64,000 bases of DNA from Mustelus asterias (taxonomy: Eukaryota): NCBI RefSeq assembly GCF_964213995.1, contig NC_135804.1:68634001-68698000 (forward strand), written 5' to 3'. Every line of letters begins with the position of its first letter. Positions within the stretch are counted from its first letter, which is position 1. The translations under genes were made by a program, and so were the position numbers. The notes below the pieces were generated by a model. That model was not told the DNA's origin, did not search any database, and was given only the letters and a program-made list of their open reading frames with translations. This document shows, one piece after another, positions 22,028-64,000 of the stretch.

Positions 22028-23613
22028 TTGGCACTGAAGGGAGGGACAAACGATATACATCAGAGTGTGAATAATAGCAGAGAGAGGAACGGATGATGAA
22101 AGTGGTCTCAGATTATCATGCAGAGTGTGAAATACAAGTAAGAAAGGACAAGGGTAGAAATTGTTAAGAAAACATGTGCGGCACCTCCGCCAGAGCGTCC
22201 ATTTCAACACTATAATGATTTTGCCCCTGCCTCTGTTACGTACCGGGAACACAATGTGCTGGCGGACTCGGCACCATCAGTCACAGCCTCCCGCAATGTG
22301 CTCTTCACAACCTTCTGCAGAAGAGAGGGAATATGTTCGTGACAACTTTCGTAAGTGTTGTGTCCATGTTCTTTTCAAAGTTGATTAATTTTTATGCTGT
22401 CCGTTAGATGCGTTAGAATGCGTTAGAAGGAAGTACAGTTTGTAATAGTGCTGAGAACGTGAGGGCTAGTTTGGACAGCAGGAAAAGGCAGTGGGATGAA
22501 GTCCACTGCAGAGACTGGAGGGCAGTGAAGGGTACGGTGCAATATGGGGAGCCAGGTTGGAGGTGATGGAGGTGTGAACAGAGAGAAATAGAGCAGTATT
22601 CTTATTTTAGCCACTCTGTTGTTTAAACGCTCATCCAAGTCATAGTCGCTTCCAGGTCTGGCTATTTTAACATATTCCTGACCAGCTTCCCAGTCATCCA
22701 AAACTATCCTATGTTTCAGATCGCACCAAGTCCCCTTCACCAATCATGCCTGCACTCAGCAGCCTCCACTGGCTCCGGTTAAAATAGGCAACATCGCCAA
22801 GACATTTGTGTTATCCATGTTTTCAAATCCTCCTTCGCCCCATTTTTCATAACGTCCCCTCGGCCCACAACCTGCACTCTTTTCTCTGTATCATTCCTCG
22901 TTTAATTTTTTCAATACTGGCAGCCGTGCCTTCAGCTGCCGTGTTCACAATCGTTCGAAGGCGCTACCTAAATATTTCCACCCCTCCATCACAGACTCGT
23001 TTTTTAAGACCTTTCTTGCAGTCTAACATTCAGATGGAACTTTTGGTCATCTCTGTGTGATCTTATGCGATTCATTGTCAAGGTTTTGGGTTATAATAGT
23101 CCAGTGAAGCACTTTGGAGCGTTTTATGGCTTTAACAGCGCTACATAGATGCAAACGATTGTCACTGGTCGTGGTGGAGGCTGTAGTATTGAGAACTCTG
23201 TTGAGGTCTTTGAACAATTTGTGGCATTGCAGCCAGTCTGACGATCTAAGCTTCTAGCAGTAACCTCCACTATAACCTCTTCCCAGTGACAGAGGACGGG
23301 GAAGAATATATCTCGGTTGCGCATCATTTGGATCAGGTGCCCGTAAAGCGCACCAGACAATCTGCGGATCCAACGAGCTGGCCCAGGAGCCATGTCTTTA
23401 TCCAGAAATCTTTCATTTTGTTGCGGACACATTGAAATAACTCCACGGAGGCAAAAGTCCCGTCACCAAGCTTCTTTTTTAACCAACTATAATATATAGA
23501 GAGCGCGAGCACTCCGGGTAGCTTTCTGCGACGGCAGGCTGAGAGACTGTCACACCTGCTTTAAATAGAGAGCTTGAGGCTCCCTGATTGAGCCATCAAT
23601 TAGGACTCATCAA

Positions 23614-24252
23614 ATAAACAAAATCAACTTAACTTAGGGACAACTCAAAAAGGGCAGTTCCCTGAAAGGAAGGGAACTCCTGAACCAAAAAATAAAGTGG
23701 GAAGGAAACTTAAAACATTAAATTAAAATTAAATTAAAGGGGTAGGACTCATCAAGTATTTCTTTTAGTGTTCCAACCAAATACACGAACTCAAATTAAC
23801 TTAGGGACAAATTAAAAGGGGCAGCTCCCTAAAAGAAGAGGGAACAGTCCGAACCAAAAAGCAAAGTAGAAAGGAAACTTAAAACATCAAACTAAAATGT
23901 GATTATCCGGTCGATAATAAAATGTCGGCGACAGCACAAGTCAGGTATCGTTTTTCATACCACCCAAATAAACGACACAGCACAAGTCAGGTATCTCTTT
24001 CCAGGTACCAACTTAATAAACAAACTCAAATTAACTGACGGACAAATTAAAAGGGGCAGCTCCCCAAAAGGAATTGGAACAGCCCGAACCAAAACTAAAT
24101 CACAAAGGAAACTTAAAACATCAAATCATAATGTGGTTATCAGGGTTGATAATGCACCCCAGCCCCTGCGGTACCCAGCGGGCGTGGAAGGCGTCAACTG
24201 CGCCCGTGGACACCTCGTGCTCCCTCTCCAGGGACACCTGGCCGCGAATATA
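23614..24252 (-). mobile_element. Cluster of 3-4 5'-truncated Tx1/L1-type 3' ends
   Basis: Each piece matches the 3' UTR (and 23.9/24.13-24.25 kb also the ORF2 end) of the 47.7-58.6 kb array unit; TSD-like repeats between pieces. Confidence 0.8.
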
Positions 24253-26884
24253 ACAGCGCAAGTCAGGTAGTTCATACTCTAGCAAGCAATGTCATTAGCC
24301 ATCATCATCACACACATGCAGCTCCCAATTAGGAAGAGCTAGTTATGTTTAATAATGTCAGTGGAACCATATTTGATCCCCTCTGCAAATAGATGTCCGT
24401 CAATCGAATGGCTGGCCATCCGGGAAAGGAACCTTTGTGCCTTCGACTTGAGTGGCGACAAGGAGCTCACACAAAACTAAAGCCTATATTGATAGTGATA
24501 AAGCCACTCTACTGGCTGGAATCACAACAAACATCAAACAAAATAATTGCGATTATTGGAGGATAATCATCGACAGTCTGGGTCATCTCAGGGGAGTATA
24601 TTTCCACGATGAGTGAGATCTGAAGTGGGGCTGAAAGTTGCAGAATGTTTAATTCCAACTTCGATTCCTCATCAGTAAGACCTGCAGGCCGAGGCGCATC
24701 AGTAACACAAGTGCCACCCGTGACCCCTTCTAACCGAGGAGAGGATGTGAACCTAAACATGATATTCAGTGGCATTGCCATCGCCGAATGTCTCATTGTA
24801 CATATGACGGACAGATTAGGCTATGGGTCTCCGGTGGCCAATATCCGCATTGCTACAGCTGCAAGAGCACTCAACAACTTCAACAATACCCATAAAATAA
24901 CATTCCCTTTGATGAGTAACCCATCCATTAGCTTTAACATTCACACCGTTCACTGCCTGCGTACTCTGACGACAGTGGCACAAAACTGATGATCCTATTA
25001 GTTATCCATTTTTAGAAGATTCTGGTTCCACTGTTGTCCAGGCCACGTTACATTAGATATTTTTTCGATGAGGAGGAGGGTGTGTGTTGGCAATGACAAG
25101 CCATCTGTCGACAGACTGTTTGGGACAGGCAAATGCAAGTTGATAAATCGCCATGGCAACTTCAATCACAACTTCATGTTCCAGGGTACAGATGCTCGAG
25201 GAAAGATGGAACAGGAGGTAAGAGAGGAAGGGGGTTGCACTTTTGCTGAGGGAAAGCATCACGGCCATACTGAGAGGGGATATATCCGAGGGTTCGGCCA
25301 TTGAGTCTATATGGTTAGAACTGAGAAATAAGAAGGGGGAAATCACTTTGATAGGGTTGTACTATAGGCCCCCAAATTGTCAGTGGGAAAATGAGGAGCA
25401 AATATGTAAGGAGATTACAGATAGCTCCAAGAAAAATAGGGTGGTAATAGTTGGAGATTTTAATTTTCCCAACATTGACTGGGACAGCCATAGTATTAGA
25501 GGGTTGGATAGAGAGAAATGTGTTGAGTGTATTCAGGTGGAATTTCTCATTCAGTATGTGGATGGCCCGACTAGAAAGGGGGCAAAACCTGACCTCCTCT
25601 TGGGAGATAAGGAAGGGCAGGTGACAGAAGTGTTAGTGAGGGATCACTTTGGGACCAGTTACCATAATTCTATTAGTTTTAACATAGCTATGGAGAATGA
25701 TAGGTCTGTCCCAAAAGTTAATATTCTAAATTGGGGCAAGGCCAATTTTGATGGTATCAGGCAGGAACTTTCAAAAGTTAATTGGGGGAGTCTGTGGGAA
25801 GGAAAAGGGACGACCAGGGTTCTCCCTCTGGACACTTTTGTATCTCTCCCTTCTCACCTTAGACCTATGCCCTCTAGTTTTAGACTCCCCTACCTTTCCT
25901 CTTAGAGTGAAGGGCAAGGCTGGCAGAAGTCGGGAACCCTGGATGACTCGGGATATTGAGGCCCTGGTCAAGAAGAAGAAAGAGGCACATGACGTGTATA
26001 GGCAGCTGGGATCAAGTGAATCTCTTGAAGAGAATTGGGGGTGTAGGAGTAGAGTTAAGAAAGAAATCATGAGGGCAAAAAGGGGACGCAAAATTGTTTT
26101 GGCAGATAAAGCAAAGGAGAATCCAAAGAGCTTCTACAAATACATAAAGGGCAAAAGAGTAACAAGGGAGAGAGGATGGCCTCTTAAGGATCAAGGTAAT
26201 CTATGTGCGGGTCCACAAGAGATGGGTGAGATCCTCAATGAATATTTTTCATCTGTATTTACTGTTGAGAAAAGCATGGATGTTGGGAAACTTGGAAAAT
26301 AAATATTGATGTCTTGAAGAGTGTACCTATTACAGAGAAGGAGGTGCTGGAAGTCTTAAAGCGCATCAAGGTAGATAAATCTGCGGGACCTGATGAGGTA
26401 TATCCCAGGACATTGTGGGAGGCTAGGGAGGAAATTGCGGGTCCCCTACCCGAGATATTGGAATTATCGATAGTCACGGGTGAGGTGCCTGAAGATTGGA
26501 GAGTGGCAAATGTTGTGCCTTTGTTTAAAAAGGGCTGGAGGAAAAAGTCTGGGAACTACAGGCCAGCGAGCCTCACATCTGTGGTGGGTAAATTGTTGGA
26601 AGATATTTTGAGAGACAGGATCTACAGGCATTTAGAGATGCAAAGACTGATTCGGGACAGTCAGCATGGCTTTGTGAGTGGAAAATCATGTCTCACAAAT
26701 GTAATTGAGTTTTTTGAAGGGGTAACCAAGAAGGTAGATGAGGGCAGTGCAGTCGATGTTGTCTACATGGTCTTTAGCAAGGCCTTTGACAAGATACCGC
26801 ATGGTAGGTTGTTGCATAAAGTTAAATCTCACGGGATCCAGGGTGAGGTACCTAAATGGATACAAAATTGGCTTCTTGACAGAA

Positions 26885-29492: not shown

Positions 29493-30747
29493 TTTTATCT
29501 TTTAAAAAGCATCTAGATATTTACATGGGTACGATGGGTATAGAGGGATATGGGCCAAAGGCAGGCAATTGGGATTAGTTTAGGGGTTTTTAAATAAAAG
29601 GGCGGCATGGACAAGTTGGGCCGAAGGGCCTGTTTCCATGCTGTAAGCCTCTATGACTCTAACTCACATTGAACAATATGGCCGTTTGCATATTATCATA
29701 TGCAGTCTGTATAATGAAACTTTGAGGCTGGAGAAATACATTTCTTAAGCGAAAGTGTCACGGCAACCAATGTGTTAAAAATGAACCCTCCCGAACCTCG
29801 GGTAAGGAAGCGAAATCATAGCCGAGTGCTGAAAACTGATCGGGCGGAGCGGGGCGAGGGCGGGGTGCCTGGAAATGTCATGGAGAATGCTCAGCAAATG
29901 CAATCTTCTCGGATTTCAGTTATTTCTTGGAAGGAGGATGGGTTTCGGACTGATCCTGTTTTTATTTTCTCTATTACGGTGTTTGGATGCAATACTCATC
30001 CTTCTGCTCAAGTTAGCATGGGAATCCAACGTCCATATAGACAGATTGAAGGCCGGGTGCCCATAATAAATCAGCACCTTAGTGGCCGTTCTTATCGAAG
30101 CAAAACGTGCTTTAAAGGTTTCTTCCACCTCGATCCCTGCTGCAGCTGTCGAGCACAGCACCCGACGCATTAAGGCAGGCACAAATAATCGGTTGAAATG
30201 AACGACTTCATCATATATTTTCCGTCATTTCCTTTCTTCAGCCAGCAGGGCTGCAGAACTTCGTGGCTTCTCCCCAAGCCCCATCCGGTCCAACACCATC
30301 TACCACCACCGCCCCCCCCCCTCCTCCCGCCCCCCGTCGCTGCCCACCGTCATCAGCGACACACACATACATCATTTTCTTGATATGCCCTCCTTGCCGC
30401 GTTTTATCCTAATAGATCAGAGCAAATGCTGGACAATTAATCAATTTTTACCTTGGTAGATTGAAGACTTTGCATCCTCCAGCTCCTCACAAACAAGCAG
30501 TCATTTCATGGACTGTCGCTCTGCTTGATCAAATTGTTCAGAATTTTGGCCAGTGTGGCAATTCCGTGCATTACTGTTCTCGGAATCATTTTCACAGGTG
30601 CCCGGTCTCACAATACTTTGTTTTCTCATTGAATCGCGGAGTTATGTGGCTTTGTATTGTATCATTGTTCTTGACAGATATTACCTGACCCCCCCCCCCC
30701 CCCCCCCACTCCTGCAATATGATGTCATTTTTATATTTTTCCCATAG

Positions 30748-31047
30748 GAACTTCAGTCAGAGTCACTCAGCTCCCCGAGAGAGTGAACACAAACACCGGT
30801 ACGAACATTTCCTTTCATTGCTCGCTTCCCTTCTTTCAAGATGGCCCACGTGTGAATGTAAACTGGTGGAAAAAGAGTGATAATCAATATCTAAGATCAG
30901 GGCAAAATTACAGAATAATAACTGGATTCAGCGACTTCCTTCGTATAATGAATGTGAGTGTGCAGGACACAGGAGTATACTATTGCATTGTCACGCATCA
31001 AGGCAAAACAGCTGGAAATGGAATAGGATCTAATTTAACAGTATGGG
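30748..31047 (+). CDS. Gene 1 exon: Ig V-set domain, germline-joined VJ type (NKp30/antigen-receptor-like)
   Basis: Pyrimidine tract + AG at 30746-47, phase 1; TSVRVTQLP...ISFHC...VNWWK...LRIMNVSVQDTGVYYC...GNGIGSNLTVW; phase-1 donor G|GTACGT. Confidence 0.9.
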
Positions 31048-31929
31048 GTACGTATAAGAAAAATGCGAGTGAGACCCAACTGACTGCAATATTTCACACT
31101 TCTAAGTGTTCCCACATGTGCTTTGATAGATTTTAATTGTAAATTAAATCCCACGATTAATGCAAAATAGATGAATAGATTCAAATTTGTGTTGAAGGCA
31201 TATTACAATAATTCGGTAATATTGGTCTGCTTTACCTGTTTAGAACTTAGTTGTTTATATTAAAATGCGCCCTAAATTTGGAGGCAGCAAACAATTGAAG
31301 TTAAAAATGCAGTGTTAGCTAATAAGGTGCATGTTTGAACAGTAGTATACACATGTGCCGATTTGCAGATAGATCGTATCTTATTTGGCATTTTAATTTA
31401 GTCGCATTGGTTACAGCTGATTAGAATTCAAAACCTCCCTATTTATGATATCATGGTCCATAGGAAATCGCCTATGACTAATTTTTAAATGTAGCACTCT
31501 TGAGCTACAGCCTCATATTTTCTTATAATTTTGGCCGCCAATAAATAAGATCATCCGGGATCTTGGTGCTGAAGTCTCACCTATTTGCTAAATATTTTCT
31601 AATCAATTTTTAGATTCAGATGTGAAAATCGCCTTCAGCGGAACAGCAAAATAGGCCAACAGCCCAAATTGTATCTAATTGCTTCCCGAGTAGAATAAAA
31701 GATTGAGCGAGATTTTAAATGGGTACGAACTCGCTTACATCCGCGTGTTTTTTTTTATTTTAGCCCGACGATAACAGTTTAAATTTCAAGCGAAATACTA
31801 CCGACACAGGTGAGAATGACCTTTAGGATATAATTAGAGATAATGCAACCTAACTCTCTGTCCTCCCACGACCCCACCAGCAATGGATTGGAACACAAAG
31901 TTTAGCTGGTAATCTGGATTAATGGTATT

Positions 31930-32345: not shown

Positions 32346-32386
32346 CAGTGTGAAACTACCAATCTTTCAATTCTTTATTGTTCTAG

Positions 32387-32698
32387 TTCCGTCAACAACA
32401 CTGAAAATTAACTCTCAGCAACTTGAAACGGATCCAGCTGCAACTCTTATTGTTCTGTGCACCACATCTCCTTTTCCCCCGAAGAATATTAGCTTCATTT
32501 GGTATAAGGATGGCGCTATAACTAAAATAGGGATAAATACCATCATTAAACCCAGCACCAATGGACTATATGAAGCTTCAAACCGGTTGCAAGAGACGCA
32601 ACCTGTCCGATCCCTAACTGTTTACACCTGCCTGGTCTTTCACAGTACACTCCAAATTCCAGCCATAACCACTCACATTGTCACCTACCCAAACACAG
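32387..32698 (+). CDS. Gene 1 exon: Ig C1-set domain
   Basis: TTCTAG acceptor, phase 1; LIVLCTTSPFPPKNISFIWYKDG...NGLYEASNRL...YTCLVFHSTL; donor G|GTAAG. Confidence 0.9.
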
Positions 32699-46510: not shown

Positions 46511-47737
46511 TATTTCACGAGATTATTGTTAGCAGTAAACAAAAGAACATAGATAATATTCCCTTATTTCGAGTTAATTGGACTGGTTCCGCCAATTGTA
46601 CAACTAATGTGCTGGCGCGAAATTTCGATCGGGAGCCTATGGGCCCAATGCTAACGTTCATCGACTCCGACACGATTTTCCGGGTTTGCTCCCATTGCTG
46701 TGCGCAGAAAATGAGAACAGGAACTGCTCTGGTATCGAGTTAGAGAAAATTGCAACACAGACGCAAATGTATTCGCCCCGAAATCTCTGTTGCCGATGCT
46801 TTGGAAAGGATATCCAATTGCTCCCACCGATTGTCTTTAAAACATCTCCTTTTCGAAAATATGAAAAACATTATTTAATCGGCACAATTGGTATCGTTAT
46901 ATCTGTTGGGGAAAAATAATTTTCCTGCCCTTCAAACAGAACGCACTTGCAAATACTTCCAATTATCCTGCACTGTGTAATGACAGTGGTGCCACATGAC
47001 CACACCAAGATAACAACGATCATAATTAACTGATTGGATACACGAAGTAATTAAAAATGTAGATACACGTTGAAGTGCTATCGGGAAGTATTTTACTCAG
47101 CAGCTGGAATTTCTCTTCAAGATTGCAACAATGAGTAAAAGGAATACGCTTCTTGAAAATATCATGAGGAGATTGGGGACTAGGTTGTTAGCAATGCTTT
47201 CGGAATCATCTGACTTTCGTGACTTCTCTACACAAACGATAATATAAGTTCTTTCACCAAATAATTTCAAATAACATAGCTTAATATGTGGCTCTGTGTG
47301 CTGGACAATAAGGATCTCTGTATATCCCTGTGGATCAAAGATCATAACTCAAAAGTTCGTTGCTGAAGTCCCCAAGTTCCTTGCCCTCCAGTTGTGAAAT
47401 TTGTACAGCTTTTCATTGAATCTCGAGTGTGTATGCAGACGTTTCATGAACTTATGGTTCGGCAATAAATTGGGATGCATGGAAAGGAAAAATTAAATGA
47501 CTTGATGGATCTTACGAACCATGAGGACAATTGAAGCTCGAAATGGTGCAAGCGGAAATGTCCATTTAAAATGTACTCATTACAGACTCAATGAAGGAGA
47601 AATATTTTTGACCGCTGTTGGATAACGGTTAACGAGCGCTTGCTTAGCTGTTCGGTTGCATTGTTGAATACGAATTAATCGGACCTTTCATAAAAACTGT
47701 TCAGCGGTTAGTGATGCAGTGAAAACTGTTGGCCCAA

Positions 47738-50700
47738 ATTTGGCGAGGTTGCCCTCTTTTTAGGTCAAACCAAATAAACAAACTCAAATTAAGTCAGAAC
47801 AAAGTAAAAGGGTCAGCTCCCCAAAAAGGAGGGGGAACAGCCCGAACAGAAATCAAAGTACAAAGGAAACTTAAAAACATCAAATTAAAATGTGATTATT
47901 AGTGTCGATAACGCACCCCAACATCTGCGGTGCCCGGCGGGCACGGGAGGCATCAACCGCACCCGTGGACACCACATGCTCCTTCTCCAGGGACACCTGG
48001 TCGCGGACGTAGCCGCGGTAGAGGGGAAGACAGACAGGATGGACGGCCCCCTCGATCGCCCGCTGCCTGGACCGGTAAATGGCGCGTTTCGCCAGGCCCA
48101 GGAGCAGGTTCACGAGTAGGTCGCCATCCCAACCCTCCCCTCTCTGCACCGGGTGTCCATAGATCAGGAGCGTGGGACTGAAGTGCAGACAAAACATCAA
48201 TAAAAGGTTCTTCAGGAAAACATAAAGGGAGTGCAGCCTAAGCCATAAAACAGAGGCATGGTCCACGGACTCCACAAGGCCGCAGAAAGGGCAGTCTTCG
48301 GAGCCCGTGAACCAGTGAATTCTACGGTTGTGCGGAACTGCTGCATGCATCAACCTCCAACCCAGGTCCCCGACGTAATTGGGGGAGATCCCTTCGTAGA
48401 GGGACCTCCAGCGGGGATTTGGCGAGGTTGCCCTCTTTATAGGTCAAACCGAATAAACAAACTCAGGTTAAGTCAGGACAAAGTAAAAGGGGCAGCTCCC
48501 CAAAAAGGAGGGGGAACAGCCTGAAGAGAAATCAAAGTACAAAGGAAACTTAAAAACATCAAATTAAAATGTGATTATTAGGGTCAATAATGCACCCAAA
48601 CCCCTGCGGTGCCCAGCGGGCGCGGAAAGCATCAACCGCGCCCGTGGACACCGCATGCTCCCTCTCCAGGGACACCTGGCCGTGAACGTAGCCGCGGTAG
48701 AGGGGCAGACAGTCAGGATGGATGGCCCACTCGATCGCCCGCTGCCTGGACCGGTAAATGGCGCATTTCGCCAGTCCCAGGAGCAGGTTCATGAAGAGGT
48801 CGCCATCCCGACACTCCCCTCTCTGCACCGGGTGTCTGTAGATCAGGAGCGTGGGACTGAAGTGCAAACAAAACATCAATAAAAGGTTCTTCAGGAAAAC
48901 ATAAAGGGAGTGCAGCCTAAGACACACAACATAGACATGGTCCACGGACTCCACAAGGCCGCAGAAAGGGCAGTCTTCGGAGCCCGTGAACCAGTGAATC
49001 CTACTGTTGTGCGGAACTGCTGCATGCATCACCCTCCACCCCAGGTCCCCGACGTAATTGGGAGAGATCCCTTCGGAGAGGGACATCCAGCGGGGATTTG
49101 GTGAGGTTGCCCTCTTTTTAGGTCAAACCAAATAAACAACCTCAGGTTAGGTCAGGACAAAGTAAAAGGGTCAGCTCCCCAAAAAGGAGGGGGAACAGCC
49201 CGAACAGAAATCAAAGTACAAAGGAAACTTAAAAACATCAAATTAAAATGTGATTATTAGGGTCAATAATGCACCACAACCCCTGCGGTGCCCAGCGGGT
49301 GCGGAAACGTAAACCGCGTCCGTGGACACCGCATGCTCCCTCTCCAGGGACACCTGGCCGCGAACGTAGCCGCGGGAGAGGGGCAAGCAGTCAGGATGGA
49401 CGGCCCCCTCGATCGCCCGCAGCCTGGACCGGTAAATGGCGCGTGTCGCCAGGCCGAGGAGCAGGCTCACGAGGAGGTCGCCATCCCGCCCTCCCCTCTC
49501 CGCATCGGGTGTCTGTATATCAGGAACGTGGGACTGAAATGCAGACAAATCATCAATAAAAGGTTCTTCAGGAAAACATAAAGGGAGTGCAGCCGAAGAC
49601 ACACAACATAGACATGGTCCATGGAGTCTACAAGGCCACAGAAAGGGCAGTCTTCGGAGCCCGTGAACCAGTGAATCCACGGTTGTGCGGAATGGCTGCA
49701 TACATCACCCTCCACCCCAGGTCCCCGACGTAATTGTGGGAGATCCCCCCATAGAGGGACCTCCAGCGGGGATTTGGCGAGGTTGCCCTCTTTTTAGGTC
49801 AAACCAAATAAACAAACTCAGATTAAATCAGGACAAAGTAAAAGGGGCAGTCCTCAAAAAGGAGGGGGAACAGCCCAAACAGAAATCAAAGTACAATGGA
49901 AACTTAAAAACATCAAATTAAAATGTGATTATTCGGGTCAATAATACACCCCAACCACTGCGGTGCCCAGCGGGCGTGGAAGGCGTCAACCCTGCCCGTG
50001 TACACGGCATGCTCCCTCTCCAGGGACACCTGGCCGCGAACGTAGCCGTGGTAGAGGGGCAGGCAGTCAGGATGGACGGCCCCCTCGATCGCCCGCTGCC
50101 TGGACTGGAAAATGGCGCATTTCGCCAGGCCCAGGAGCAGGTTCACGAGGAGGTCGCCATCCCGAAACTGCCCTCTCCGCAACGGGTGTCAGTAGATCAG
50201 GAGCGTGGGACTGAAGTGCAGACAAAACATCAATCAAAGGTTCTTCAGGAAAATATGAACGGAGTGCAGCCTAAGCCATAAAACATAGACATGGTCCACG
50301 GACTCCACATGGCCGCAGAAAGGGCAGTCTTCGGAGCCCGTGAACCAGTGAATCCTACGGTTGTGCGGAACTGCTGCATGCATCACCCTCCACCCCAGGT
50401 CCCCGACGTAATTGGGGGAGATCCCTCCGTAGAGAGACCTCCAGCGGGGATTTGGCAAGGTTGCCCTCTTTTTAGGTCAAACCAAATAAACAAACTCAAA
50501 TTAAATCAGGACAAAGTAAAAGGGGCAGCTCCCAAAAAAGGAGGGGGAACAGCCCGAACAGAAATCAAAGTACAAAGGAAACTTAAAAACAGCAAATTAA
50601 AATGTGATTATTAGGGTCAATAATGCACCCCAACCCCTGCGGTGCCCAGCGGGCGCAGAAGGCGTCAACCGCACCCGTGGACACCGCATGCTCCCTCTCC

Positions 50701-53700
50701 AGGGACACCTGGCCGTGAACGTAGCCACGGGAGAGGGTCAGGCAGTCAGGATGGACGGCCTCCTCGATCGCCCGCTGCCTGGACCGGTAAATGGCGCGTT
50801 TCGCCAGGCCCAGGAGCAGGTTCACGAGGAGGTCGCCATCCCGACCCTCCCCTCTCCTCACCGGGTGTCCGTAGATCAGGAGCGTGGGACTGAAGTGCAG
50901 ACAAAACATCAATAAAATGTTCTTTAGGAAAACATAAAGGGAGTGCAGCCTAAGACACACAACATAGACATGGTCCACGGACTCCACAAGGCTGCAGAAA
51001 GGGCAGACTTCGGAGCCCGTGAACCAGTGGATTCTACGGTTGTGCGGAACTGCTGCATGCATCAACCTCCACCCCAGGACCCCAACGTAATTGGGGGAGA
51101 TCCCTTCGTAGAGGGACCGCCAGTGGGGATTTGGCGAGGTTGCCCTCTTTATAGGTCAAACCAAATAAACAAACTCAGGTTAAGTCAGGACAAAGTAAAA
51201 GGGGCAGCTCCCCAAAAAGGAGGGGGAACAGCCCGAACAGAAATCAAAGTACAAAGGAAACTTAAAAACATCAAATTAAAATGTGATTATTAGGGTCAAT
51301 AATGCACCCAAACCCCTGCGGTGCCCAGCGGGCGCGGAAAGCATCAACCGCGCACGTGGACACCGCATGCTCCCTCTCCAGGGACACCTGGCCGCGAACG
51401 TAGCCGCGGTAGAGGGGCAAGCAGTCAGGATGGATGGCCCGCTCGATCGCCCGCTGCCTGGACCGGTAAATGGCACGTTTCGCCAGTCCCAGGAGCAGGT
51501 TCACGAGGAGGTCGCCATCCCGCCCTCCCCTCTCCGCATCGGGTGTCCGTATATCAGGAACGTGGGACTGAAATGCAGACAAATCATCAATAAAAGGTTC
51601 TTCAGGAAAACATAAAGGGAGTGCAGCCTAAGACACACAACATAGACATGGTACATGGAGTCTACAAGGCCACAGAAAGGGCAGTCTTCGGAGCCCGTGA
51701 ACCAGTGAATCCTACGGTTGTGCAGAACGGCTGCATACATCACCCTCCACCCCAGGTCCCCGACGTAATTGTGGGAGATCCCCCCATAGAGGGACCTCCA
51801 GCGGGGATTTGGTGAGGTTGCCCTCTTTTTAGGTCAAACCAAATAAACAAACTCAGATTAAATCAGGACAAAGTAAAAGGGGCAGCTCCTCAAAAAGGAG
51901 GGGGAACAGCCCAAACAGAAATCAAAGTACAAAGGAAACTTAAAAACATCAAGTTAAAATGTGATTATTCGGGTCAATAATGCACCCCAACCAGTGCGGT
52001 GCCCAGCGGGCGCGGAAGGCGTCAACCCTGCCCGTGTACACGGCATGCTCCATCTCCAGGGACACCTGGCCGCGAACGTAGCCGTGGTAGAGGGGCAGGC
52101 AGTAAGGATGGACGGCCCCCTCGATCGCCCGCTGCCTGGACCGGTAAATGGCGCATTTCGCCAGGCCCAGGAGCAGGTTCACGAGGAGGTCGCCATCCCG
52201 AAACTCCCCTCTCCGCAGCGGGTGTCCGTAGATCAGGAGCGTGGGACTGAAGTGCAGACAAAACATCAATAAAAGGTTATTCAGGAAAATATGAAGGGAG
52301 TGCAGCCTAAGCCATAAAACATAGACATGGTCCACGGACTCCACATGGCCGCACAAAGGGCAGTCTTCGGAGCCCGTGAACCAGTGAATCCTACGGTTGT
52401 GCGGAACTGCTGCATGCATCACCCTCCACCCCAGGTCCCCGACGTAATTGGGGGAGATCCCTCCGTAGAGAGACCTCCAGCGGGGATTTGGCAAGGTTGC
52501 CCTCTTTTTAGGTCAAACCAAATAAACAAACTCAAATTAAATCAGGACAAAGTAAAAGGGGCAGCTCCCAAAAAAGGAGGGGGAACAGCCCGAACAGAAA
52601 TCAAAGTACAAAGGAAACTTAAAAACATCAAATTAAAATGTGATTATTAGGGTCAATAATGCACCCCAACCCCTGCGGTGCCCAGCGGGTGCGGAAGGCA
52701 TCATCCGCGCCCGTGGACACCGCATGCTCCCTCTCCAGGGACACCTGGCTTCGAACGTAGCCGCGGTAGAGGGGCAGACAGGCAGGATGGACGGCCCCCT
52801 CGATCGCCCGCTGCCTGGACCAGTAAATGGCACGTTTTGCCAGTCCCAGGAGCAGGTTCACGAGGAGGTCGTCATCCTGTCCCTCCCCTCTCCGCACCGG
52901 GTGTCCGTAGATCAGGAGCGTGGGACTGAAGTGCAGACAAAACATCAATAAAAGGTTCTTCAGGAAAACATAAAGGGAGTGCAGCCTAAGACACACAACA
53001 TAGACATGGTCCACGGACTCCACAAGGCCACAGAAAGGGCAGTCTTCGGAGCCCGTGAACCAGTGAATCCTACGGTTGTGCGGAACTGCTGCATGCATCA
53101 CCCTCCACACTATGTCCCCGACGTAATTGGGGGCGATCCCTCCATAGAGGAACCTCCAGCGGAGATTTGGCGAGGTTGCCCTCTTTTTAGGTCAAACCAA
53201 ATAAACAAACTCAGATTAAATCAGGACAAAGTAAAAGGGGCAGCTCCCAAAAAGGGAGGGGGAACAGACCGAACAGAAATCAAAGTACAAAGGAAACTTA
53301 AAAACAGCAAATTAAAATGTGATTATTAGGGTCAATAATGCACCCCAACCCCTGCGGTGCCCAGCGGGCGCGGAAGGCGTCAACCGCACCTGTGGACGCC
53401 GCATGCTCCCTCTCCAGGGACACCTGGCCGCGAACGTAGCCGCGGGAGAGGGGCAGACAGTCAAGATGGCCGGCCCCCTCGATCGCCCGCTGCCGGGACC
53501 GGTAAATGGCGCATTTTGCCAGGCCCAGGAGCAGGTTCACGAGGAGGTCGTCATCCCGTCCCTCCCCTCTCCGCACCGGGTGTCCGTAGATCAGGAGCGT
53601 GGGACTGAAGTGCAGACAAAAGATCAATAAAAGGTTCTTCAGGAAAACATAAAGTGAGTGCAGACTAAGGCACACAGCATAGACATGGTCCACGGACTCC

Positions 53701-56700
53701 ACAAAGCCGCAGAAAGGGCAGTCTTCGGAGCCCGTGAACCAGTGAATTCTACGGTTGTGCGGAACTGCTGCATGCATCACCCTCCACCCCAGGTCCCCGA
53801 CGTAATTGGGGGATATCCCTTTCTAGAGGGACCTCCAGCGGGGATTTGGCGAGGTTGCCCTTTTTTAAGGTCAAACCAAATAAACAAACTCAGGTTAAGT
53901 CAGGACAAAGTGAAAGGGGCAGCTCCCCAAAAAGGAGGGGGAACAGCCAGAACAGAGATCAAAGTACAAAGGAAACTTAAAAACATTAAATTCAAATGTG
54001 ATTATTCGGGTCAATAAGGCACCACAAACCCCTACGGTGCCCAGCGGGCGCGGAAAGCGTCAACCGCGCCCGTGGACACCGCATGCTCCCTCTCCAGGGA
54101 CCCCTGGCCGTGAATGTAGCCGCGGGAGAGGGGCAGGCAGTCAGGATGGACGGCCCGCTCGATCGCCCGCTGCCTGGACCGGTAAATGGCGCATTTCGCC
54201 AGGCCCAGGAGCAGGTTCACGACGAGGTCGCCATCCCGACCCTCCCCTCTCCGCACCGGGTGTCCGGAGATCAGGAGCGTGGGACTGAAGTGCAGACAAA
54301 AGATCAATAAAAGGTTCTTCAGGAAAACTTAAAGGGAGTGCAGCCTAAGACACACAACATAGACATGGTCCACGGACTCCACAAAGCCGCAGAAAGGGCA
54401 GTCTTCGGAGCCCGTGAACCAGTGAATCCTACGGTTCTGCGGAACTGCTGCATGCATCAACCTCCACCCCAGGTCCCCGACGTAATTGGGGGAGATCCCT
54501 CCGTAGAGAGACCTCCAGCGGGGATTTGGCGAGGTTGCCCTCTTTTTAGGTCAAACCAAATAAACAAACTCAAATTAAATCAGGCCAAAGTAAAAGGGGC
54601 AGCTCCCCAAAAAGGAGGGGGAACAGCCCGAACAGAAATCAAAGTACAAAGGAAACTTAAAAACATCAAATTAAAATGTGATTATTAGGGCCAATAATGC
54701 ACCCCAACCCCTGCGGTGCCCAGCGGGCACGGAAGGCATCAACCCCGCCCGTGGACACGGCATGCTCCCTCTCCAGGGACACCTGGCCGCGAACGTAGCC
54801 GCGGTAGAGGGGCAGACAGTCAGGATGGCCGGCCCGCTCAACCGCCCACTGCTTGGACCGGTAAATGGCGCGTTTCGCCAGACCCAGGGGCAGGTTCACA
54901 AGGAGGTCGCCATCCCGACCCTCCCCTGTCCGCACCGGGTGTCCATAGATCAGGAGCGTGGGACTGAAATGCAGACAAAACATCAATAAAAGTTTCTTCA
55001 GGAAAACATAAAGGGAGTGCAGCCTAAGACACACAACATAGACATGTTCCACGGACTCGAGAAGGCCACAGACAGGGAAGTCTTCGGAGCCCGTGAACCA
55101 GTGAATCCTATGGTTGCGCGGAACTGCTGCATACATCACCCTCCACCCCAGGTCCCCGATGTAGAGGGACCTCCAGCGGGGATTTGGCGATGTTGCCCTC
55201 TTTTTAGGTCAAACCAAATAAACAAACTCAGATTAAGTCAGGACAAAGTAAAAGGGGCAGCTCCCCAAAAAGGAGGGGTAACAGCTCGAACAGAAATCAA
55301 AGTGCAAAGGAAACTTAAAAACATCAAATTAAAATGTGATTATTAGGGTCAATAATGCACCCCAACCCGTGCGGTGCCAAGCGGGCGCGCAAGGCGTCAA
55401 CCGCGCCCGTGGACACCGCATGCTCCCTCTCCAGGGACACCTGGCCGACAACGTAGCCGCGGTAGAGGGGAAGACAGTCAGGATGGATGGCCCGCTCGAC
55501 CGCCCGCTGCCTGGACCGGTAAATGGCGCGTTTTGCCATGCCCAGGAGCAGGTTCACGAGGAGGTCGCCATCCCGACCCACCCCTCTCCGCACCGGGTGT
55601 CCGGAGATCAGGAGCGTGGGACATGAAGTGCAGACAAAACATCAATAAAAGGTTCTTCAGGAAAACATAAAGGGAGTGCAGCCTAAGACACACAAAATAG
55701 ACATGGTCCACGGACTCCACAAGGCCGCAGAAAGGGCAGTCTTCAGAGCCCGTGAACCAGTGAATCCTACGGTTGTGCGGAATTGCTGCATACATCACCC
55801 TGCACCCCAGGCCCCCGACGTAATAGGGGGAGATGCCCCCGTAGATGGACCTCCAGCGGGGACTTGGCGAGGTTGCCCTCTTTTTAGGTCAAACCAAATA
55901 AACAAACTCAGATTAGATCAGGACAAAGTAAAAGGGGCAGCTCCCCAAAAAGGAGGGGGGACAGCCCGAACAGAAATCAAAGTACAAAGGAAACTTAGAA
56001 ATATCAAATTAAAATGTGATTATTAGGGTCAATAATGCACCCCAACCCCTGCGGTGCCCAGCGGGCGCGGAAGGCATCAACCACGCCCGTGGACACCGCA
56101 TGCTCCCTCTCCAGGGACATCTGGCCGTGACCGTAGCCGCGGTTGAGGGGAAGACAGTCAGGATGGACGGCCCCCTCGATCGCCCGCTGCCTGGACCGGT
56201 AAATGGCGCATCTCGGCAGGCCCAGGAGCAGGTTCACGAGGAGGTCGCCATCCCGACCCTCCCCTCTCCGCACCGGGTGTCCGTAGATCAGGAGCGTGGG
56301 ACTGAAGTGCAGACAAAACATCAATAAAAGGTTCTTCAGGAAAACATAAAGGGAGTGCAGCCTACGACACACAACATAGACATGGTCCACGGACTCCACA
56401 AGTCCGCAGAAAGGGCAGTCTTCGGAGCCCGTGAACCAGTGAATCCTACGGTTGTGCGGAACTGCTGCATGCATCACCCTCCACCCCAGGTCCCCGACGT
56501 AATTGGGGGAGATCCCTCCGTAGAGGGACATCCAGCGGGGTTTTGGCGAGGTTGCCCTCTTTTTAGGTCAAACCAAATAAACAAACTCAGATTAAATCAG
56601 GATAAAGTAAAAGGGTCAGCTCCCCAAAAAGGAGGGGGAACAGCCCGAACAGAAATCAAAGTACAAAGGAAACTTAAAAACATCAAATTAAAATGTGATT

Positions 56701-58591
56701 ATTAGGGTCAATAATGCTCCCCTACCCCTGCGGTGCCCAGCGGGCGCGGAAGGCGTCAACCACGCCCGTGGACACCGCATGCTCCCTCTCCAGGGACATC
56801 TGGCCGCGACCGTAGCCGCGGTTGAGGGGAAGACAGTCAGGATGGACGGCCCCCTCGATCGCCCGCTGCCTGGACCGGTAAATGGCGCATCTCGGCAGGC
56901 CCAGGAGCAGGTTCACGAGGAGGTCGCCATCCCGACCCTCCCCTCTCCGCACCGGGTGTCCGTAGATCAGGAGCGTGGGACTGAAGTGCAGACAAAACAT
57001 CAATAAAAGGTTCTTTAGGAAAACATAAAGGGAGTGCAGCCTACGACACACAACATAGACATGGTCCACGGACTCCACAAGTCCGCAGAAAGGACAGTCT
57101 TCGGAGCCCGTGAACCTGTGAATCCTACGGTTGTGCGGAACTGCTGCATGCATCACCCTCCACCGCAGGTCCCCGACGTAATTGGGGGAGATCCCTCCGT
57201 AGAGGGCCATCCAGCGGGGTTTTGGCGAGGTTGCCCTCTTTTCAGGTCAAACCAAATAAACAAACTCAGATAAAATCAGGATAAAGTAAAAGGGTCAGCT
57301 CCCCAAAAAGGAGGGGGGACAGCCCGAACAGAAATCAAAGTGCAAAGGAAACTTAAAAACATCAAATTAAAATGTGATTATTAGGGTCAATAATGCACCC
57401 CTACCCCTGCGGTGCCCAGCGGGCGCAGAAGGCATCAACCGCGCCCGTGGACACCGCATGCTTCCTCTCCAGGGACACCTGGCCGCGAACGTAGCCGCGG
57501 TAGAGGGTCAGACAGTCAGGATGGATGGCCCCCTCGATCGCCCGCTGCCTGGACCGGTAAATGGCGCGTTTCGCCAGGCCCAGGAGCAGGTTCACGAGGA
57601 GGTCGCCATCCCGACCCTTCCCTCTCCGCACGGGTGTCCGTAGATCAGGAGCGTGGGACTGAAGTGCAGACAAAACATCAATAAAAGGTTCTTCAGGAAA
57701 ACATAAAGGGAGTGCAGCCTAAGACACACAACATAGACATGGTCCACGGACTCCACAAGGCCGCAGAAAGGGCTGTCTTCGGAGCCCGTGAACCAGTGAA
57801 TCCTACGGTTGTGCGGAACTGCTGCATGCATCACCCTCCACCCCAGCTCCCCGACGTAATTTGGGGAGATCTCTCCGTAGAGGGACCTCCAGCGGGGATT
57901 TGGCAAAGTTGCCCTCTTTTTAGGTCAAACCAAATAAACAAACTCAGATAAAATCAGGACAAAGTAAAAGGGGCAGCTCCCCAAAAAGGAGGGGGAATAG
58001 CCCGAACAGAAATCAAAGTACAAAGGAAACTTAAAAACATCAAATTAAAATGTGATTATTAGGGTCAATAATGCGCCCCAACCCCTGCGGTGCCCAGCGG
58101 GCGCGGAAGGCGTCAACCGCGCCCGTGGACACCGCATGCTCCCTCTCCAGGGACACCTGGCCGCGAACGTAGCCGCGGTAGAGGGGAAGAAAGTCAGGAT
58201 GAACGGCCCCCTCGATCTCCCGCTGCCTGGACCGGTATATGGCGCATTTCGCCAGGCCCAGGAGCAGGTTCACGAGGAGGTCGCCATCCCGACCCTCCCC
58301 TCTCCGCACCGGGTGTCCGGAGATCAGGAGCGTGGGACTGAAGTGCAGACAAAACATCAATAAAAGGTTCTTCAGGAAAACATAAAGGGAGTGCAGCCTC
58401 AGCCACACAACATAAACATGTTCCACGGACTCCACAAGGCCCCAGAAAGGGCAGTCTTCGGAGCCCGTGAACCATTGAATCCTCCGGTTGTGCGGAACTG
58501 CTGCATGCATCACCCTCCACCCCAGGTCCCCGACGTAATTGGGGGAGATCCCTCCGTCGAGGGACCTCCAGCGGGGATTTGGCGAGGTTGC
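47738..58591 (-). repeat. Tandem array: 16 x ~679-bp units, each the 3' end of a Tx1/L1-clade retrotransposon (zinc-knuckle ORF2 C-terminus + 3' UTR) plus a 15-bp spacer
   Basis: Frame ends (..NNHILI*) recur at 47880, 48559, ~49238, 49913, ~50592, 51271, 51949, 52628, ~53307, ~53986, 54666, 55324, 56004, ~56683, ~57362 and 58040. Protein PRWRSLY..DLGWRVMHAAVP..CPFCG..ESVDH...C.RL matches the Tx1-type zf-RVT region. Confidence 0.93.
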
Positions 58592-59240
58592 AACAAGGTC
58601 AACAGCTGAGTCGTTCTGACTGAATCCAAACTGAGTGTCAATGAGCAGGTTATTGCGAAGCAAGTGCGACTTGATAACACTGTTGATGTCCCCTTTCATC
58701 ACTTTGTTGATGATCAAGAACAGGCTAATGGGCTGGTAATTGGCTGGGTTAGATTTGTCCTTTTTTTCTGTACAGGACATATTTGGGTAATTTTCCATGC
58801 TATCGGGTGAATGTCAGTGTTGTGTCTTTACAGGAACAGCTTGGCTCGGGGCGCGGCAAGTTCTGGAGAACAAGTCCTCGGTACTATTGACGGAATATTG
58901 TCAGGGTCCAAAGCTTTTGCAGTATCCAGTGCCTTCGGTCGTTTCTTGATTTCAGATTAACTGGATAACACACAGCACTTCTGACTGAAGATTCGTGCAA
59001 ATACCTCAGCCTTAACACAGCGCTGATGTGCTGAGCTCCTCCATTATTGAGGATCGTGAAATTTGTGGAGCTTCCACCTCCAGTGAGTTGTTTAATTGGC
59101 CACCAACTTTCATGGCTGGATGTGGCAGGACTGCAGAGTTTAGATCGGACCAGTGGGTTGTGGAATTGCTCAGCTCTATTATTCCTTACGCTATTTGCCA
59201 CGCAGCTCGACTTGCGTTGTAGTTTCACCAAGTTGGAACC
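58592..59240 (-). mobile_element. Decayed CR1/L2-group LINE, apparent host of the array
   Basis: KKDKSNPANYQPISL...LIDTQFGFSQNDSAVDL; same type as the LINE at 8880-10025. Confidence 0.8.
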
Positions 59241-59506
59241 CCACTGCGGAGCTGCCTGTTTTTTGTGTGGCGGAAGTACCTTCAAGAGCGCAGATGTGTT
59301 AGGTTTAGTTGGACAAATAAACAGCAATCAGATTCCGGATAGATTGGAAACAGTGGGTGGAACTTCCGCCCTAAGATCACCCTGAACCAAACCTGGAAAT
59401 CCATTGACCGGTTGTTTCACCACCCCAGACCTTTCATAAAGCCTTTAGAAATTTTCACCAGCAATATTTTACAGCCCAGATACTAATAGTTGGGAGAGGG
59501 AATGTG

Positions 59507-59669: not shown

Positions 59670-60307
59670 AGAGGGAATGTGAACAGACGTGATCGGAACA
59701 GAATCATTTGGAGCAGATTTATCTTAACATACCATCTTACTCATCGTTTTTCTGTCCCCTGAGTGGCAATGGGACCCCCTCCCCGCTGCCCACCAACCCC
59801 GACCATTCCTTTCTTTCTCTCTCCTATTCTTCTGCCTCACTGACTAATCAATGACTCTCTTCAATGTGCGAGCCAGTGACGTCCATGGGGATAAAGGCCA
59901 ATCAGTGGGGTTTCGCTTTAATATAAAATGACTGTCCTGCTGAAAAGGTTCCATCGCATTAAGGTTTACATGGTTTATCGGACAACAAATTTAAACACAC
60001 GACACAGCACCTCGCCACATTGCAACTCAGATTGGATAATCTACAAACGAATATTTCCAAACGATCAGAGCCGCGGTCCACCGTCCGATCAACAGCCATT
60101 TCACAATGTTTGTGAGTCAGTGCACATGGGCATTGCGGATTATTTACGAAGGTATTGCACATTCCAGTTGGGTCTGGGTCTATTGTTCATTTTGTTTCTT
60201 CGAACCAGTCTTATTGCGTCCTGCCTGCCTGTGACTGTGTCTCTCGACTTGTCTGCGGTTAAAGTAATTTATTTATATGTAATAACTACATTTTTAATAT
60301 TTTATAG

Positions 60308-60613
60308 TTCCTTCCACCTCAGTGTCGCAATCACCTGAAAGCATCATTCTAATGGCAGGTTCAGACATTACATTCCACTGTACAGCGAACTCCGTCTACA
60401 ATTACTCAGATGTTTATTGGTGGAAACTTGGCGACGAAACCTTATTACAACCGAATTCTGATGGCAGAAAGCGATTCTTTCCTTTTGAAAACGGAGCGAC
60501 TTCCTTCCAGATCCTGAATGTCCGTGTCCCCGACTCCGGATCCTATTACTGCGGAGTGCGAGACACAGGCAACAGGGTCCTGAATGGAACCGAATCCAAA
60601 CTTGCTGTGCACC
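60308..60613 (+). CDS. Gene 2 exon: Ig V-set domain, germline-joined VJ type
   Basis: TTTATAG acceptor, phase 1; SVSQSPE...ITFHC...VYWWK...FQILNVRVPDSGSYYC...NGTESKLAVH; donor C|GTAAGC. Confidence 0.9.
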
Positions 60614-60847
60614 GTAAGCGACTTTGGAGTGAGATGCGACTTCTGCAATTTCAGGAAGACCAATTCCAAAATAACAAAGCGAGGTGAGCGGGCAGCTCAT
60701 GAGGCATATTTTCAAATATTGTTAATAGTGAACGTCGTGTTCGTTTACATGTGAACATTTACACGTCAGGTTTAGCTGAAGTGCTTTAATAATATTGAAT
60801 GGCGTGGAAACTAACATAAATTTATTTGATCATTGGGTCATTTTTTT

Positions 60848-60980
60848 TATTCATGGGACATGGTCGTCGTTGGCTGGCCAACATTTATTGCCCATCCCTA
60901 GTTGCCCCTGAGAAGGTGATGGTGAACTACCTTCATGAATCGCTGCAGTCTACGTGCTGTGGGTTGATCCACAATGCCGT
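60848..60980 (-). mobile_element. 3' tail of the 8880-10025 LINE family
   Basis: Reverse complement of 9900-10020. Confidence 0.75.
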
Positions 60981-61390
60981 TTGACCCAATACCCATTGTA
61001 TTGCTTTATTTAAGATAACGAGAGTGATATTTAAATTCAGATTTCTTGTTATATCACGGTTATCACCCATTAAGATGTGGGTTATTATTCACGAATATAA
61101 ATAATAAATACTTCTGGGCTTCACGATCGAAAAGGGATCTGAAGCCGAAGTGCAGGCTGTAGTAGTAACATATAATGCTAAGTGACTGTCCACAAAGATG
61201 GACAACACATGAGTTTGTACAACCTATGGCATGGCTATACCTTGCATACTGCGTACAATGAAATCACCGACCTTCAGTCAGGCTACACAATTACTGTCGG
61301 CGGCGGAACAACTGGAAACTAACCGAACTGGAGCATCCTTCAGACATTTGGGGAACCGGCCTTATTTGCTTTGCAGCAGGGAAACGAAAA

Positions 61391-61691
61391 GCGGCACGGG
61401 AGCACAGTGGTTAGCACTGCTGCTTCACAGCTCTAGGGTCCCGGGTTCGATTCCCGGCTCGGGTCACTGTCTGTGTGGAGTTTGCACATTCTCCTCGTGT
61501 CTGCGTGGGTTTCCTCCGGGTGCTCCGGTTTCCTCCCATAGTCCAAAGATGTGCGGTTTAGGTTGATTGGCCAGGTTAAAAATTGCTCCTGGGATGCGTA
61601 GGTTAGCGGGTGAACATGTGGGGTGGGATTGTGGTCGGTGCAGACTCGATGGGCTGAATGGCCTCCTTCTGCACTGTAGGGATTCTATTCT
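61391..61691 (+). mobile_element. HE1-type SINE, near full length
   Basis: GCGGCACGG..CAGTGGTTAGCACTGCTGC..GGTTCGATTCCCGG..TGTGTGGAGTTTGCACATTCTC. Confidence 0.93.
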
Positions 61692-61779
61692 AAAGCACAT
61701 TGTAGATTTTATTTCTTCAGGTTATGAATAGAGTACATAATCCGAGAAAGATGGGCACAAAAACGACAAATAATAGTTA

Positions 61780-63755: not shown

Positions 63756-64000
63756 CTTCCCCAGAACCCATGAGACTGATCTCCAAAGTGTCCCGTCCCA
63801 ACTCATCTACGCTAACACTTGTGTGTGAAACGTCTGTGTTCTACTCAGAATCTCTCAGCTTCACTTGGTACAAAAACGACAGCAACATTGTGACTGGGAT
63901 CAGCACCATTCAAACAGTCAATTCGGAGGGAATGTATTTAGCTTCCAGCAGTTTGAAAACGGCAGATCCAGCCCATAACGGTATTGTATATGCCTGGATG
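63756..64000 (+). CDS. Gene 2 exon: Ig C1-set domain (runs off the window)
   Basis: TTCCACAG acceptor, phase 1; SPEPMRLISK...LTLVCETSVFYSESLSFTWYKND...EGMYLASSSL...VYAWM; paralogous to 32387-32698; absent from the ORF track. Confidence 0.85.

What the first reader, a model, noticed from the sequence alone, without database searches (positions are those of the whole stretch)
47738..58591. 10.85-kb satellite born from one Tx1-type insertion plus its TSD, between the two receptor genes
Seen: the structure is S-(E-S)x16. S = ATTTGGCGAGGTTGC occurs at 47738-47752, between all units (with point variants) and at 58577-58591. E is a ~664-bp 3' fragment with the same truncation point in every unit. 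Dispersed relatives at 23.6-24.3 kb lack S and have other flanks, and S continues into the decayed host LINE on the right. Inference: S is the 15-bp TSD, and the unit was amplified by TSD-mediated unequal exchange or rolling-circle copying. This captures satellite genesis from a LINE and could drive copy-number variation in an immune cluster.
Basis: partly seen in the sequence, partly recalled or inferred. Interest (0 to 1): 0.7.

Follow-up and report, generated by a model that had tools for sequence, protein, structure and literature searches.

The report
Retrotransposon fragment grown into tandem array
Sixteen head-to-tail copies of one truncated jumping-gene fragment, each separated by the short host sequence duplicated when it landed, sit between two immune-receptor-like genes. 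The array was likely seeded by a second hit at the same target and expanded early, which makes it a clean natural record of how tandem repeats are born from retrotransposons.

Summary
Observation confirmed. 47738-58591 is S-(E-S)x16, period 676-680 bp (one unit 658), units 7.0% apart. E is the 3' 664 bp of an abundant 7-kb Tx1 LINE (ORF2 48% identical to Xenopus Tx1). S is the target-site duplication: it is not family sequence, the E|S junction occurs only here, family TSDs are mostly 14-16 bp ending in TGC, and a contig from another organism shows the empty site with one S.

The array has no fixed private change, so amplification began soon after insertion; later unequal exchanges are recorded. 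The pattern recurs in this family: two same-truncation dimers in 86 loci and a pentamer. In both dimers and at the array's left edge, neighbouring copies carry different subfamily alleles, which plain TSD crossover or rolling-circle copying does not predict; a second insertion finished on the neighbouring copy is my preferred seed (about 0.5).

A paralogue 1.35 Mb away lost a whole Ig V-C1 gene by recombination between an S-E unit and a downstream Tx1 copy. TE-derived arrays with TSD junctions are known (Drosophila R1, hobo). The scan earlier noted stacked Tx1 fragments in another genome (e1-9060910).

The parts
47738..58591 (-). Tandem array S-(E-S)x16; the element reads on the - strand
47738..47752 (.). 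Leftmost S: 15-bp TSD copy at the element's 3' end (first base ambiguous: 1-bp microhomology with the family)
47753..48416 (-). Unit 1 E, chimeric: left part of the G155/C160 subfamily, shares private T151 with the paralogue's short copy; right part array-type
48417..58576 (-). Units 2-16 (S+E, about 679 bp each): Tx1 ORF2 C-terminal ~165 codons plus 3' UTR, A155/T160 subfamily
58577..58591 (.). Rightmost S: TSD copy at the 5' truncation, continuous with the host LINE fragment
58577..59400 (-). Decayed CR1-type LINE fragment that contains the target site (about 80% to dispersed copies; right boundary approximate)
47250..47737 (.). Near-unique left flank: one paralogue in the genome; joined directly to S in organism B's empty site
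30747..31058 (+). Ig V-type exon with J-like end, gene A (left neighbour)
32380..32691 (+). Ig C1-set exon, gene A
60307..60618 (+). Ig V-type exon with J-like end, gene B (absent from the paralogous segment)
63803..64000 (+). Ig C1-like exon, gene B (runs to about 64045, past the window end; absent from the paralogue)
23600..24258 (-). Three diverged 3'-end fragments of a related Tx1 subfamily, without S; not part of the array

Best explanation
The array is 16 copies of a 664-bp 5'-truncated Tx1 insertion plus its 15-bp target-site duplication, likely first doubled when a second Tx1 copy hit the regenerated target and was finished or repaired on the neighbouring copy, and likely expanded by unequal exchange soon after. 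Shown (about 0.95): E is Tx1, S is host target DNA present once in an empty site, all units share one 5' junction, there is no fixed private change, and later block duplications occurred. Inferred (about 0.5): S keeps the family's preferred target (..TTGC|), so a second element is primed there; its homology with the neighbour lets the broken or nascent end invade that copy, run through its 5' junction and S, and re-anneal on S. That gives S-E-S-E-S with one truncation point and one chimeric copy, and 679-bp homology then permits ordinary unequal exchange. The array is probably non-functional but recombinogenic.
For: Family sequence beyond E is ACCTCC.., not S, in 28 of 30 best dispersed copies (1 more has point variants, 1 is truncated 2 bases further on). 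The junction 20-mer with up to 1 mismatch has 15 genome hits, all in the array. The script found a TSD in 25 of 89 closed pieces, 14 of them 14-16 bp. Run X5 (organism B) contig 25 joins 47433-47737 directly to 58577-58688. No array-consensus allele is below 10% among 130 dispersed pieces; the consensus is 4 of 660 bases from copy L002, while units average 25.5 changes from it. Second templates: unit 1; dimers L091 and L104 have one junction but different subfamily alleles and share 0 and 3 rare alleles against 5+6 and 31+49 private ones. Plain double insertions with different truncations exist: L168 and probably the paralogue's 221-bp copy with a 16-bp repeat. Units 2-16 lack the main other-subfamily markers (146, 148, 155, 160, 185, 246), so random conversion from other subfamilies looks rare. 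Unequal exchange: u13/u14 share their right part and u14/u15 their left; u04/u07 and u03/u06 pair at offset 3.
Against: Only three loci are informative on second templates. The pentamer L167 (83-bp units) shows one haplotype and no shared substitution, which fits one-step reiteration just as well. The paralogue's short copy could be a local 238-bp duplication: both of its S copies carry the same G-to-A change that the window's left S lacks. It could also have landed on an already formed array, in which case it did not seed it. Star-likeness is only borderline against gradual histories (P=0.046 coalescent, 0.065 pure birth). The empty site rests on one contig at depth 4.9 in one run. No long read spans the array.
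Confidence: 0.5

Rival explanations
1. Concatemer at birth: S+E was copied reiteratively in one event (rolling circle from an S-E circle, or repeated slippage of the second strand back onto S), giving about 10-12 identical units; later exchange and conversion added the rest.
For: Zero fixed private changes; no neighbour-distance gradient (6.9% at distance 1, 6.4-7.2% at distances 2-14); the pentamer has no shared substitution. Rolling-circle concatemers are a proposed route (PMC5932611 passages) and circular LINE products are reported for Zorro3 (PMC3956500 passages).
Against: Predicts identical copies at birth, yet both dimers and unit 1 differ by subfamily alleles. A circle would have to reintegrate exactly in register at S. 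The frequency-spectrum test is only borderline.
Confidence: 0.25
2. One reading: a single insertion S-E-S was doubled by an unequal crossover between the two 15-bp TSDs and then grew by unequal exchange.
For: Gives exactly S-(E-S)n in register; later unequal exchange is recorded.
Against: Such a crossover could happen at any time after insertion and should then leave fixed shared changes; there are none in the array and 0 and 3 in the dimers. It does not explain two-subfamily dimers. 8-15 bp is short for homologous recombination (established knowledge, recalled).
Confidence: 0.13
3. Retrotransposon-fed array: many units were added one at a time by separate reverse-transcription events primed at internal S copies, each finished on its neighbour.
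For: At 8 of 17 non-CpG sites where the family has a common second allele, units 2-16 segregate that allele, against a background of 55/523 transitions and 86/1065 transversions (binomial P=1.5e-4, 7e-4 without site 41).
Against: Those sites may be hypermutable; several units share alleles by descent; units 2-16 show none of the main other-subfamily markers; the excess is not confined to the element's 3' end.
Confidence: 0.1
4. Assembly artefact.
For: No long read was available; only short-read contigs could be laid.
Against: Units differ by 2.5-9.5% and each has 3-18 private changes. Unit-specific contigs match exactly in run X1 (49467-49580, depth 35.6, like the unique flank) and in a second sample X3 (57819-57933, across a variant S).
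Confidence: 0.02

Closest known systems
Drosophila R1 and hobo tandem arrays from double insertion (McGurk and Barbash 2018, PMC5932611; passages read)
   Same: Head-to-tail TE copies separated by the TSD; dimers seed arrays that expand by unequal exchange; 5'-truncated non-LTR tandems occur.
   Different: In the passages read, independent insertions are recognised by distinct 5' truncations. Here 16 units (and 2, 2 and 5 at other loci) share one truncation, which plain double insertion cannot give; both array ends, an empty site and a paralogue survive; vertebrate host.
Tandem SINEU-3 insertions sandwiching a TSD, attributed to Tx1-Mar machinery, in crocodilians (PMC4494074; passages read)
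   Same: Tx1 machinery with target preference; sequential insertion at one site leaving a TSD between copies.
   Different: Described as pairs of SINE copies, not an expanded array of a truncated LINE; the target is a Mariner element, not a short TGC-ending motif.
LINE-derived satellites: cetacean common satellite (L1 3' end) and chicken HinfI (CR1 3' UTR plus partial ORF2), as reviewed in PMC9659126 (passages read)
   Same: Monomer derived from a LINE 3' end with partial ORF2.
   Different: Those are established satellites; the passages read give no founding TSD or empty site. This array is 10.85 kb and confined to one locus.
Xenopus laevis Tx1 ORF2 (UniRef YTX2)
   Same: 48% identity over 99% of the family's 1304-aa ORF2; APE endonuclease plus RT.
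   Different: Xenopus Tx1 targets a DNA transposon (PMC4494074 passage); this family uses ..TGC| sites and, in a young subfamily, its own 5' region.

Membership tests
Tx1 clade non-LTR retrotransposon | ORF2 with APE endonuclease and RT, closest named full-length relative Tx1 | tested here: met
   Pfam Exo_endo_phos and RVT_1; 48% identity over 99% to Xenopus Tx1 ORF2
Tx1 clade non-LTR retrotransposon | Two-ORF full-length element, 5'-truncated copies with intact 3' ends | tested here: met
   About 7-kb copies with an upstream ORF and a 1304-aa ORF2; truncations from 30 to 1778 bp among 89 closed pieces
Tx1 clade non-LTR retrotransposon | Placement inside Tx1 on an RT tree | not tested
   Assigned by similarity only; no tree with reference clades was built
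Target-site duplication | Direct repeat at both ends that is not element sequence | tested here: met
Target-site duplication | Present once at the empty site | tested here: met
   X5 contig 25; one contig, one run
Target-site duplication | Length and sequence typical of the family | tested here: met
   14 of 25 detected TSDs are 14-16 bp; S ends in TTGC like most GC-selected sites
TE tandem array by double insertion (McGurk-Barbash type) | TSD retained in every tandem junction | tested here: met
TE tandem array by double insertion (McGurk-Barbash type) | Two independent insertions shown by distinct 5' truncations | tested here: inconclusive
   Not met within the array (one truncation); met at L168 and possibly in the paralogue; a second template is indicated by unit 1 alleles
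TE tandem array by double insertion (McGurk-Barbash type) | Expansion by unequal exchange | tested here: met
   Offset block sharing among units; shown for late events only
Rolling-circle concatemer | Units identical at birth, star-like afterwards | tested here: inconclusive
   No fixed private allele; spectrum test P=0.046 and 0.065; mixed family alleles
Rolling-circle concatemer | Circular S-E intermediate | not testable with these tools
   Ancient event; contigs only
Satellite DNA (large, homogenised array) | Large array with concerted evolution (fixed array-specific variants) | tested here: not met
   10.85 kb, one locus, no fixed array-specific allele
Non-autonomous element with a fixed 5' end (SINE-like S+E unit) | Same unit dispersed at many loci | tested here: not met
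   Junction only in the array; truncation points scattered

The most novel reading that the evidence does not exclude
This Tx1 family builds its own tandem arrays: every TSD regenerates the target, and a new reverse-transcription event primed there is completed on the neighbouring copy, so each hit adds a unit with the founder's exact 5' junction. The 2-, 2-, 5- and 16-copy loci would then be stages of a retrotransposon-fed route to tandem repeats that needs neither a circle nor a TSD crossover.
Probability: 0.15. Interest if true: 0.7.

Novelty: new variant of a known kind. Interest (0 to 1): 0.45.

Why it matters
How dispersed retrotransposons become tandem repeats is usually inferred from end products. 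Here one family supplies a graded series (empty site, singles, unequal double insertions, same-truncation dimers, a pentamer, a 16-mer) with TSDs intact, so the seeding step can be tested by a census in one genome. The paralogue also shows Tx1-to-Tx1 recombination removing a whole Ig V-C1 receptor-like gene, although any two Tx1 copies could have done that, so the array is not shown to be needed.

Tried and rejected
Tandem Repeats Finder cannot see the period. One search found no full-length element in L106/L107; one search used a reference in the wrong orientation and was redone. S as family sequence and S+E as a dispersed unit were rejected. Continuation of the CR1 fragment into the left flank was no better than shuffles.

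Close pairs: 7 were fetched; 1 same-truncation pentamer (L167), 1 unequal double insertion (L168), and 5 not of this kind (one single copy, two independent insertions, an inverted pair, two larger segmental repeats). The pair at C4:71.09-71.11 Mb is not a third paralogue. A genome-wide census of dimers was not achieved.

No RNA holder was listed, which says nothing on expression. Runs X6, X7, X8 and X10 gave no displayed joint at the site; one X10 contig stops at 47737 with 66 bases not shown, which is suggestive only. Contig depths over the array are swamped by dispersed copies and give no copy number. PDB searches did not name the receptor genes, nor did passages of PMC12227049. No earlier finding lay near this place.

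Full report
OBSERVATION. The window is G000:C4:68634001-68698000 in a 3.68-Gb genome. The host looks like a cartilaginous fish (inference: the highest-identity partial ORF2 matches are shark and ray proteins, 64-70%). S occurs 17 times between 47738 and 58591 with 0-2 mismatches, spaced 676-680 bp apart except one 658-bp unit. Units are 2.5-9.5% apart (mean 7.0%) with no trend with distance. Each has 3-18 private changes, and unit-specific short-read contigs match exactly in two samples, so an assembly artefact is unlikely.

WHAT E IS. E reads on the - strand as the last ~165 codons of a LINE ORF2 plus the 3' UTR. The genome search gave 3541 candidates, of which 39 were scored. Full-length copies are about 7 kb with a 1304-aa ORF2 carrying APE endonuclease and RT domains, 48% identical over 99% of its length to Xenopus Tx1 ORF2. 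No RT tree was built.

WHAT S IS. In the 30 best dispersed copies the family continues past E's 5' end with its own sequence, sharing only the first base with S. A 20-mer across the E|S junction, allowing 1 mismatch, has 15 matches in the genome, all in the array. In 86 loci chosen by an exact 3'-end pattern (82 of the first 100 listed places of 571 matches, plus 4 others), a script found a TSD in 25 of 89 closed pieces; 14 were 14-16 bp, 3 short ones are probably chance, and most of the rest have none. The pattern fixed GC at the junction; the base before it was T almost throughout, and S ends in TTGC. S is in frame with the CR1-type fragment on its right, while the left flank shows no CR1 homology. 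Decisively, one 414-bp contig in run X5 (organism B) joins window 47433-47737 directly to 58577-58688, with 13 and 4 differences: the empty site with one S. This is a single contig at depth 4.9; precise loss of the insertion in B cannot be excluded but is less likely.

HISTORY INSIDE THE ARRAY. No allele of the array consensus is below 10% among 130 dispersed pieces, and the consensus is 4 of 660 bases from copy L002, whereas units average 25.5 changes from it. Amplification therefore began within roughly the first tenth of the array's age (inference from 0 against 25.5). No rare allele is carried by more than 6 of 16 units. The share of non-CpG variants in 4 or more units is 0.061, against 0.355 and 0.187 in simulated coalescent and pure-birth histories, but this is borderline (P=0.046 and 0.065). 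Later unequal exchanges are plain: u13/u14 share their right part and u14/u15 their left, and u04/u07 and u03/u06 pair at offset 3.

THE PARALOGUE. The left flank has one paralogue, 1.35 Mb downstream, 95.7% identical over 9.3 kb. It reads flank, S', E(221 bp), A, S', E(558 bp), then other sequence. The 558-bp copy has S' on one side and, on the other, the TSD and flank of an independent Tx1 copy D that lies 3 kb beyond the window's end. It is therefore a recombinant between an S-E unit and D. The lost 9-19 kb includes the V and C1 exons of gene B, which tblastn finds beside the window but not in the 70 kb fetched around the paralogous site. The window state is ancestral because both insertions there keep matching TSDs. 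The 221-bp copy is bounded by a 16-bp repeat whose extra base is the last base of the left flank, as expected of a second insertion at the leftmost S. It shares a private T151 with unit 1 (1 of 89 dispersed pieces) and the G155/C160 subfamily alleles that units 2-16 lack. A local 238-bp duplication is an alternative, since both paralogue S copies share one change.

THE PATTERN RECURS. Two of the 86 loci are S-E-S-E-S dimers with one truncation point: L091 (about 330 bp, 8-9 bp repeat) and L104 (about 1165 bp, 10-11 bp repeat). Among 300 listed places of 487 matches, seven close pairs were fetched. L167 is S-(E-S)x5 with 83-bp E units and no shared substitution; L168 is a plain double insertion with 403- and 101-bp copies; five were of other kinds. 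In both dimers the two copies carry different subfamily alleles and share 0 and 3 rare alleles against 11 and 80 private ones. In L104 the difference is clearest in the 3' 600 bp, while both copies look old-type further 5'. Units 2-16 also segregate the family's common second allele at 8 of 17 non-CpG sites against a background near 0.1, although hypermutable sites could explain part of this.

MECHANISM. Shown: Tx1 origin, TSD, one founder junction, early amplification, later unequal exchange. Inferred: the first doubling. A duplicated target remains a target; a second element primed there has hundreds of bases of homology to its neighbour, and invasion of that neighbour, synthesis through its 5' junction and re-annealing on S gives a same-truncation dimer with one chimeric copy. 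This fits unit 1, L091 and L104, and I give it about 0.5. A concatemer at birth (0.25) fits the star-like pattern and the pentamer but not the two-template pairs. A TSD-only crossover (0.13) predicts shared changes that are absent. Stepwise feeding of the whole array by separate insertions (0.1) is not excluded.

COMPARISON AND NOVELTY. Passages of PMC5932611 describe TSD-containing TE dimers from double insertion and R1 and hobo arrays grown from them. Passages of PMC4494074 describe tandem SINEU-3 insertions sandwiching a TSD, attributed to Tx1 machinery. Passages of PMC9659126 list LINE-derived satellites, and passages of PMC3956500 mention circular LINE products. So the kind is known. Seven full-text searches (listings only, apart from the papers named here and PMC12227049) turned up no report of this array or of same-truncation, two-template LINE tandems. 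The library lacks most subscription journals and I read no supplements, so absence from print is not established. One earlier scan note (e1-9060910, another genome) records stacked Tx1 fragments; I did not check it.

VERDICT. Real and well supported as a TSD-bounded Tx1 tandem array; a new variant of a known kind. The array itself is probably inert. Its value is as part of a family-wide series in which the seeding step can be tested, plus a documented Tx1-mediated gene loss next door. Interest 0.45.

Noticed in passing
L112 (G000:C504) and L010, L023-L026, L028, L029: A young subfamily of this Tx1 has its 3' end joined to the 5' region of another copy of itself in at least 8 of the 30 best loci (three may be one duplicated locus); L112 holds a head-to-tail stack with about 7.1-kb period.
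   Followed up: partly
L167, G000:C8:28170905-28171412: Second TSD-bounded array of the same family: five 83-bp 3' fragments with a variable G-run and a 12-13-bp repeat.
   Followed up: yes
L091 (C3:4.52 Mb) and L104 (C4:69.41 Mb): Same-truncation dimers whose two copies carry different subfamily alleles; L091's 5' flank begins with a short inverted copy of its 3' flank.
   Followed up: yes
G000:C4:69990001-70045000: Segmental duplicate (about 92-98% in collinear blocks) of the window's region with several deletions; it also lacks gene A's C1 exon and has an extra Tx1 copy at about C4:70015204, where gene A's V-exon match breaks.
   Followed up: partly
about 7.4 kb and 4.0 kb left of the window start; window 30747-32691 and 60307-64000: Three genes with one V exon ending in a J-like motif followed by a C1-type exon, all on the + strand; the upstream one is 84% identical to gene B's V domain. 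Family not named.
   Followed up: partly
window 23600-24258: Three diverged Tx1-related 3' fragments in a row, with a repeated short flank (CAGCACAAGTCAGGTA-like) around the last one: possibly an older stack of insertions at one site.
   Followed up: no
L068, L121, L135: A second piece of an older related subfamily lies just 5' of the Tx1 copy; in L068 both pieces share the same 5' junction and flank.
   Followed up: no
window 28227-29501 (-): 424-aa open CR1-type RT frame, one of many CR1 fragments in the window.
   Followed up: no
window 16907-17272 (+): Short ORF resembling an LTR-retroelement pol fragment by eye (recalled likeness); no Pfam hit.
   Followed up: no
window 3608-3742: 41-bp minisatellite, 3.3 copies.
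   Followed up: no
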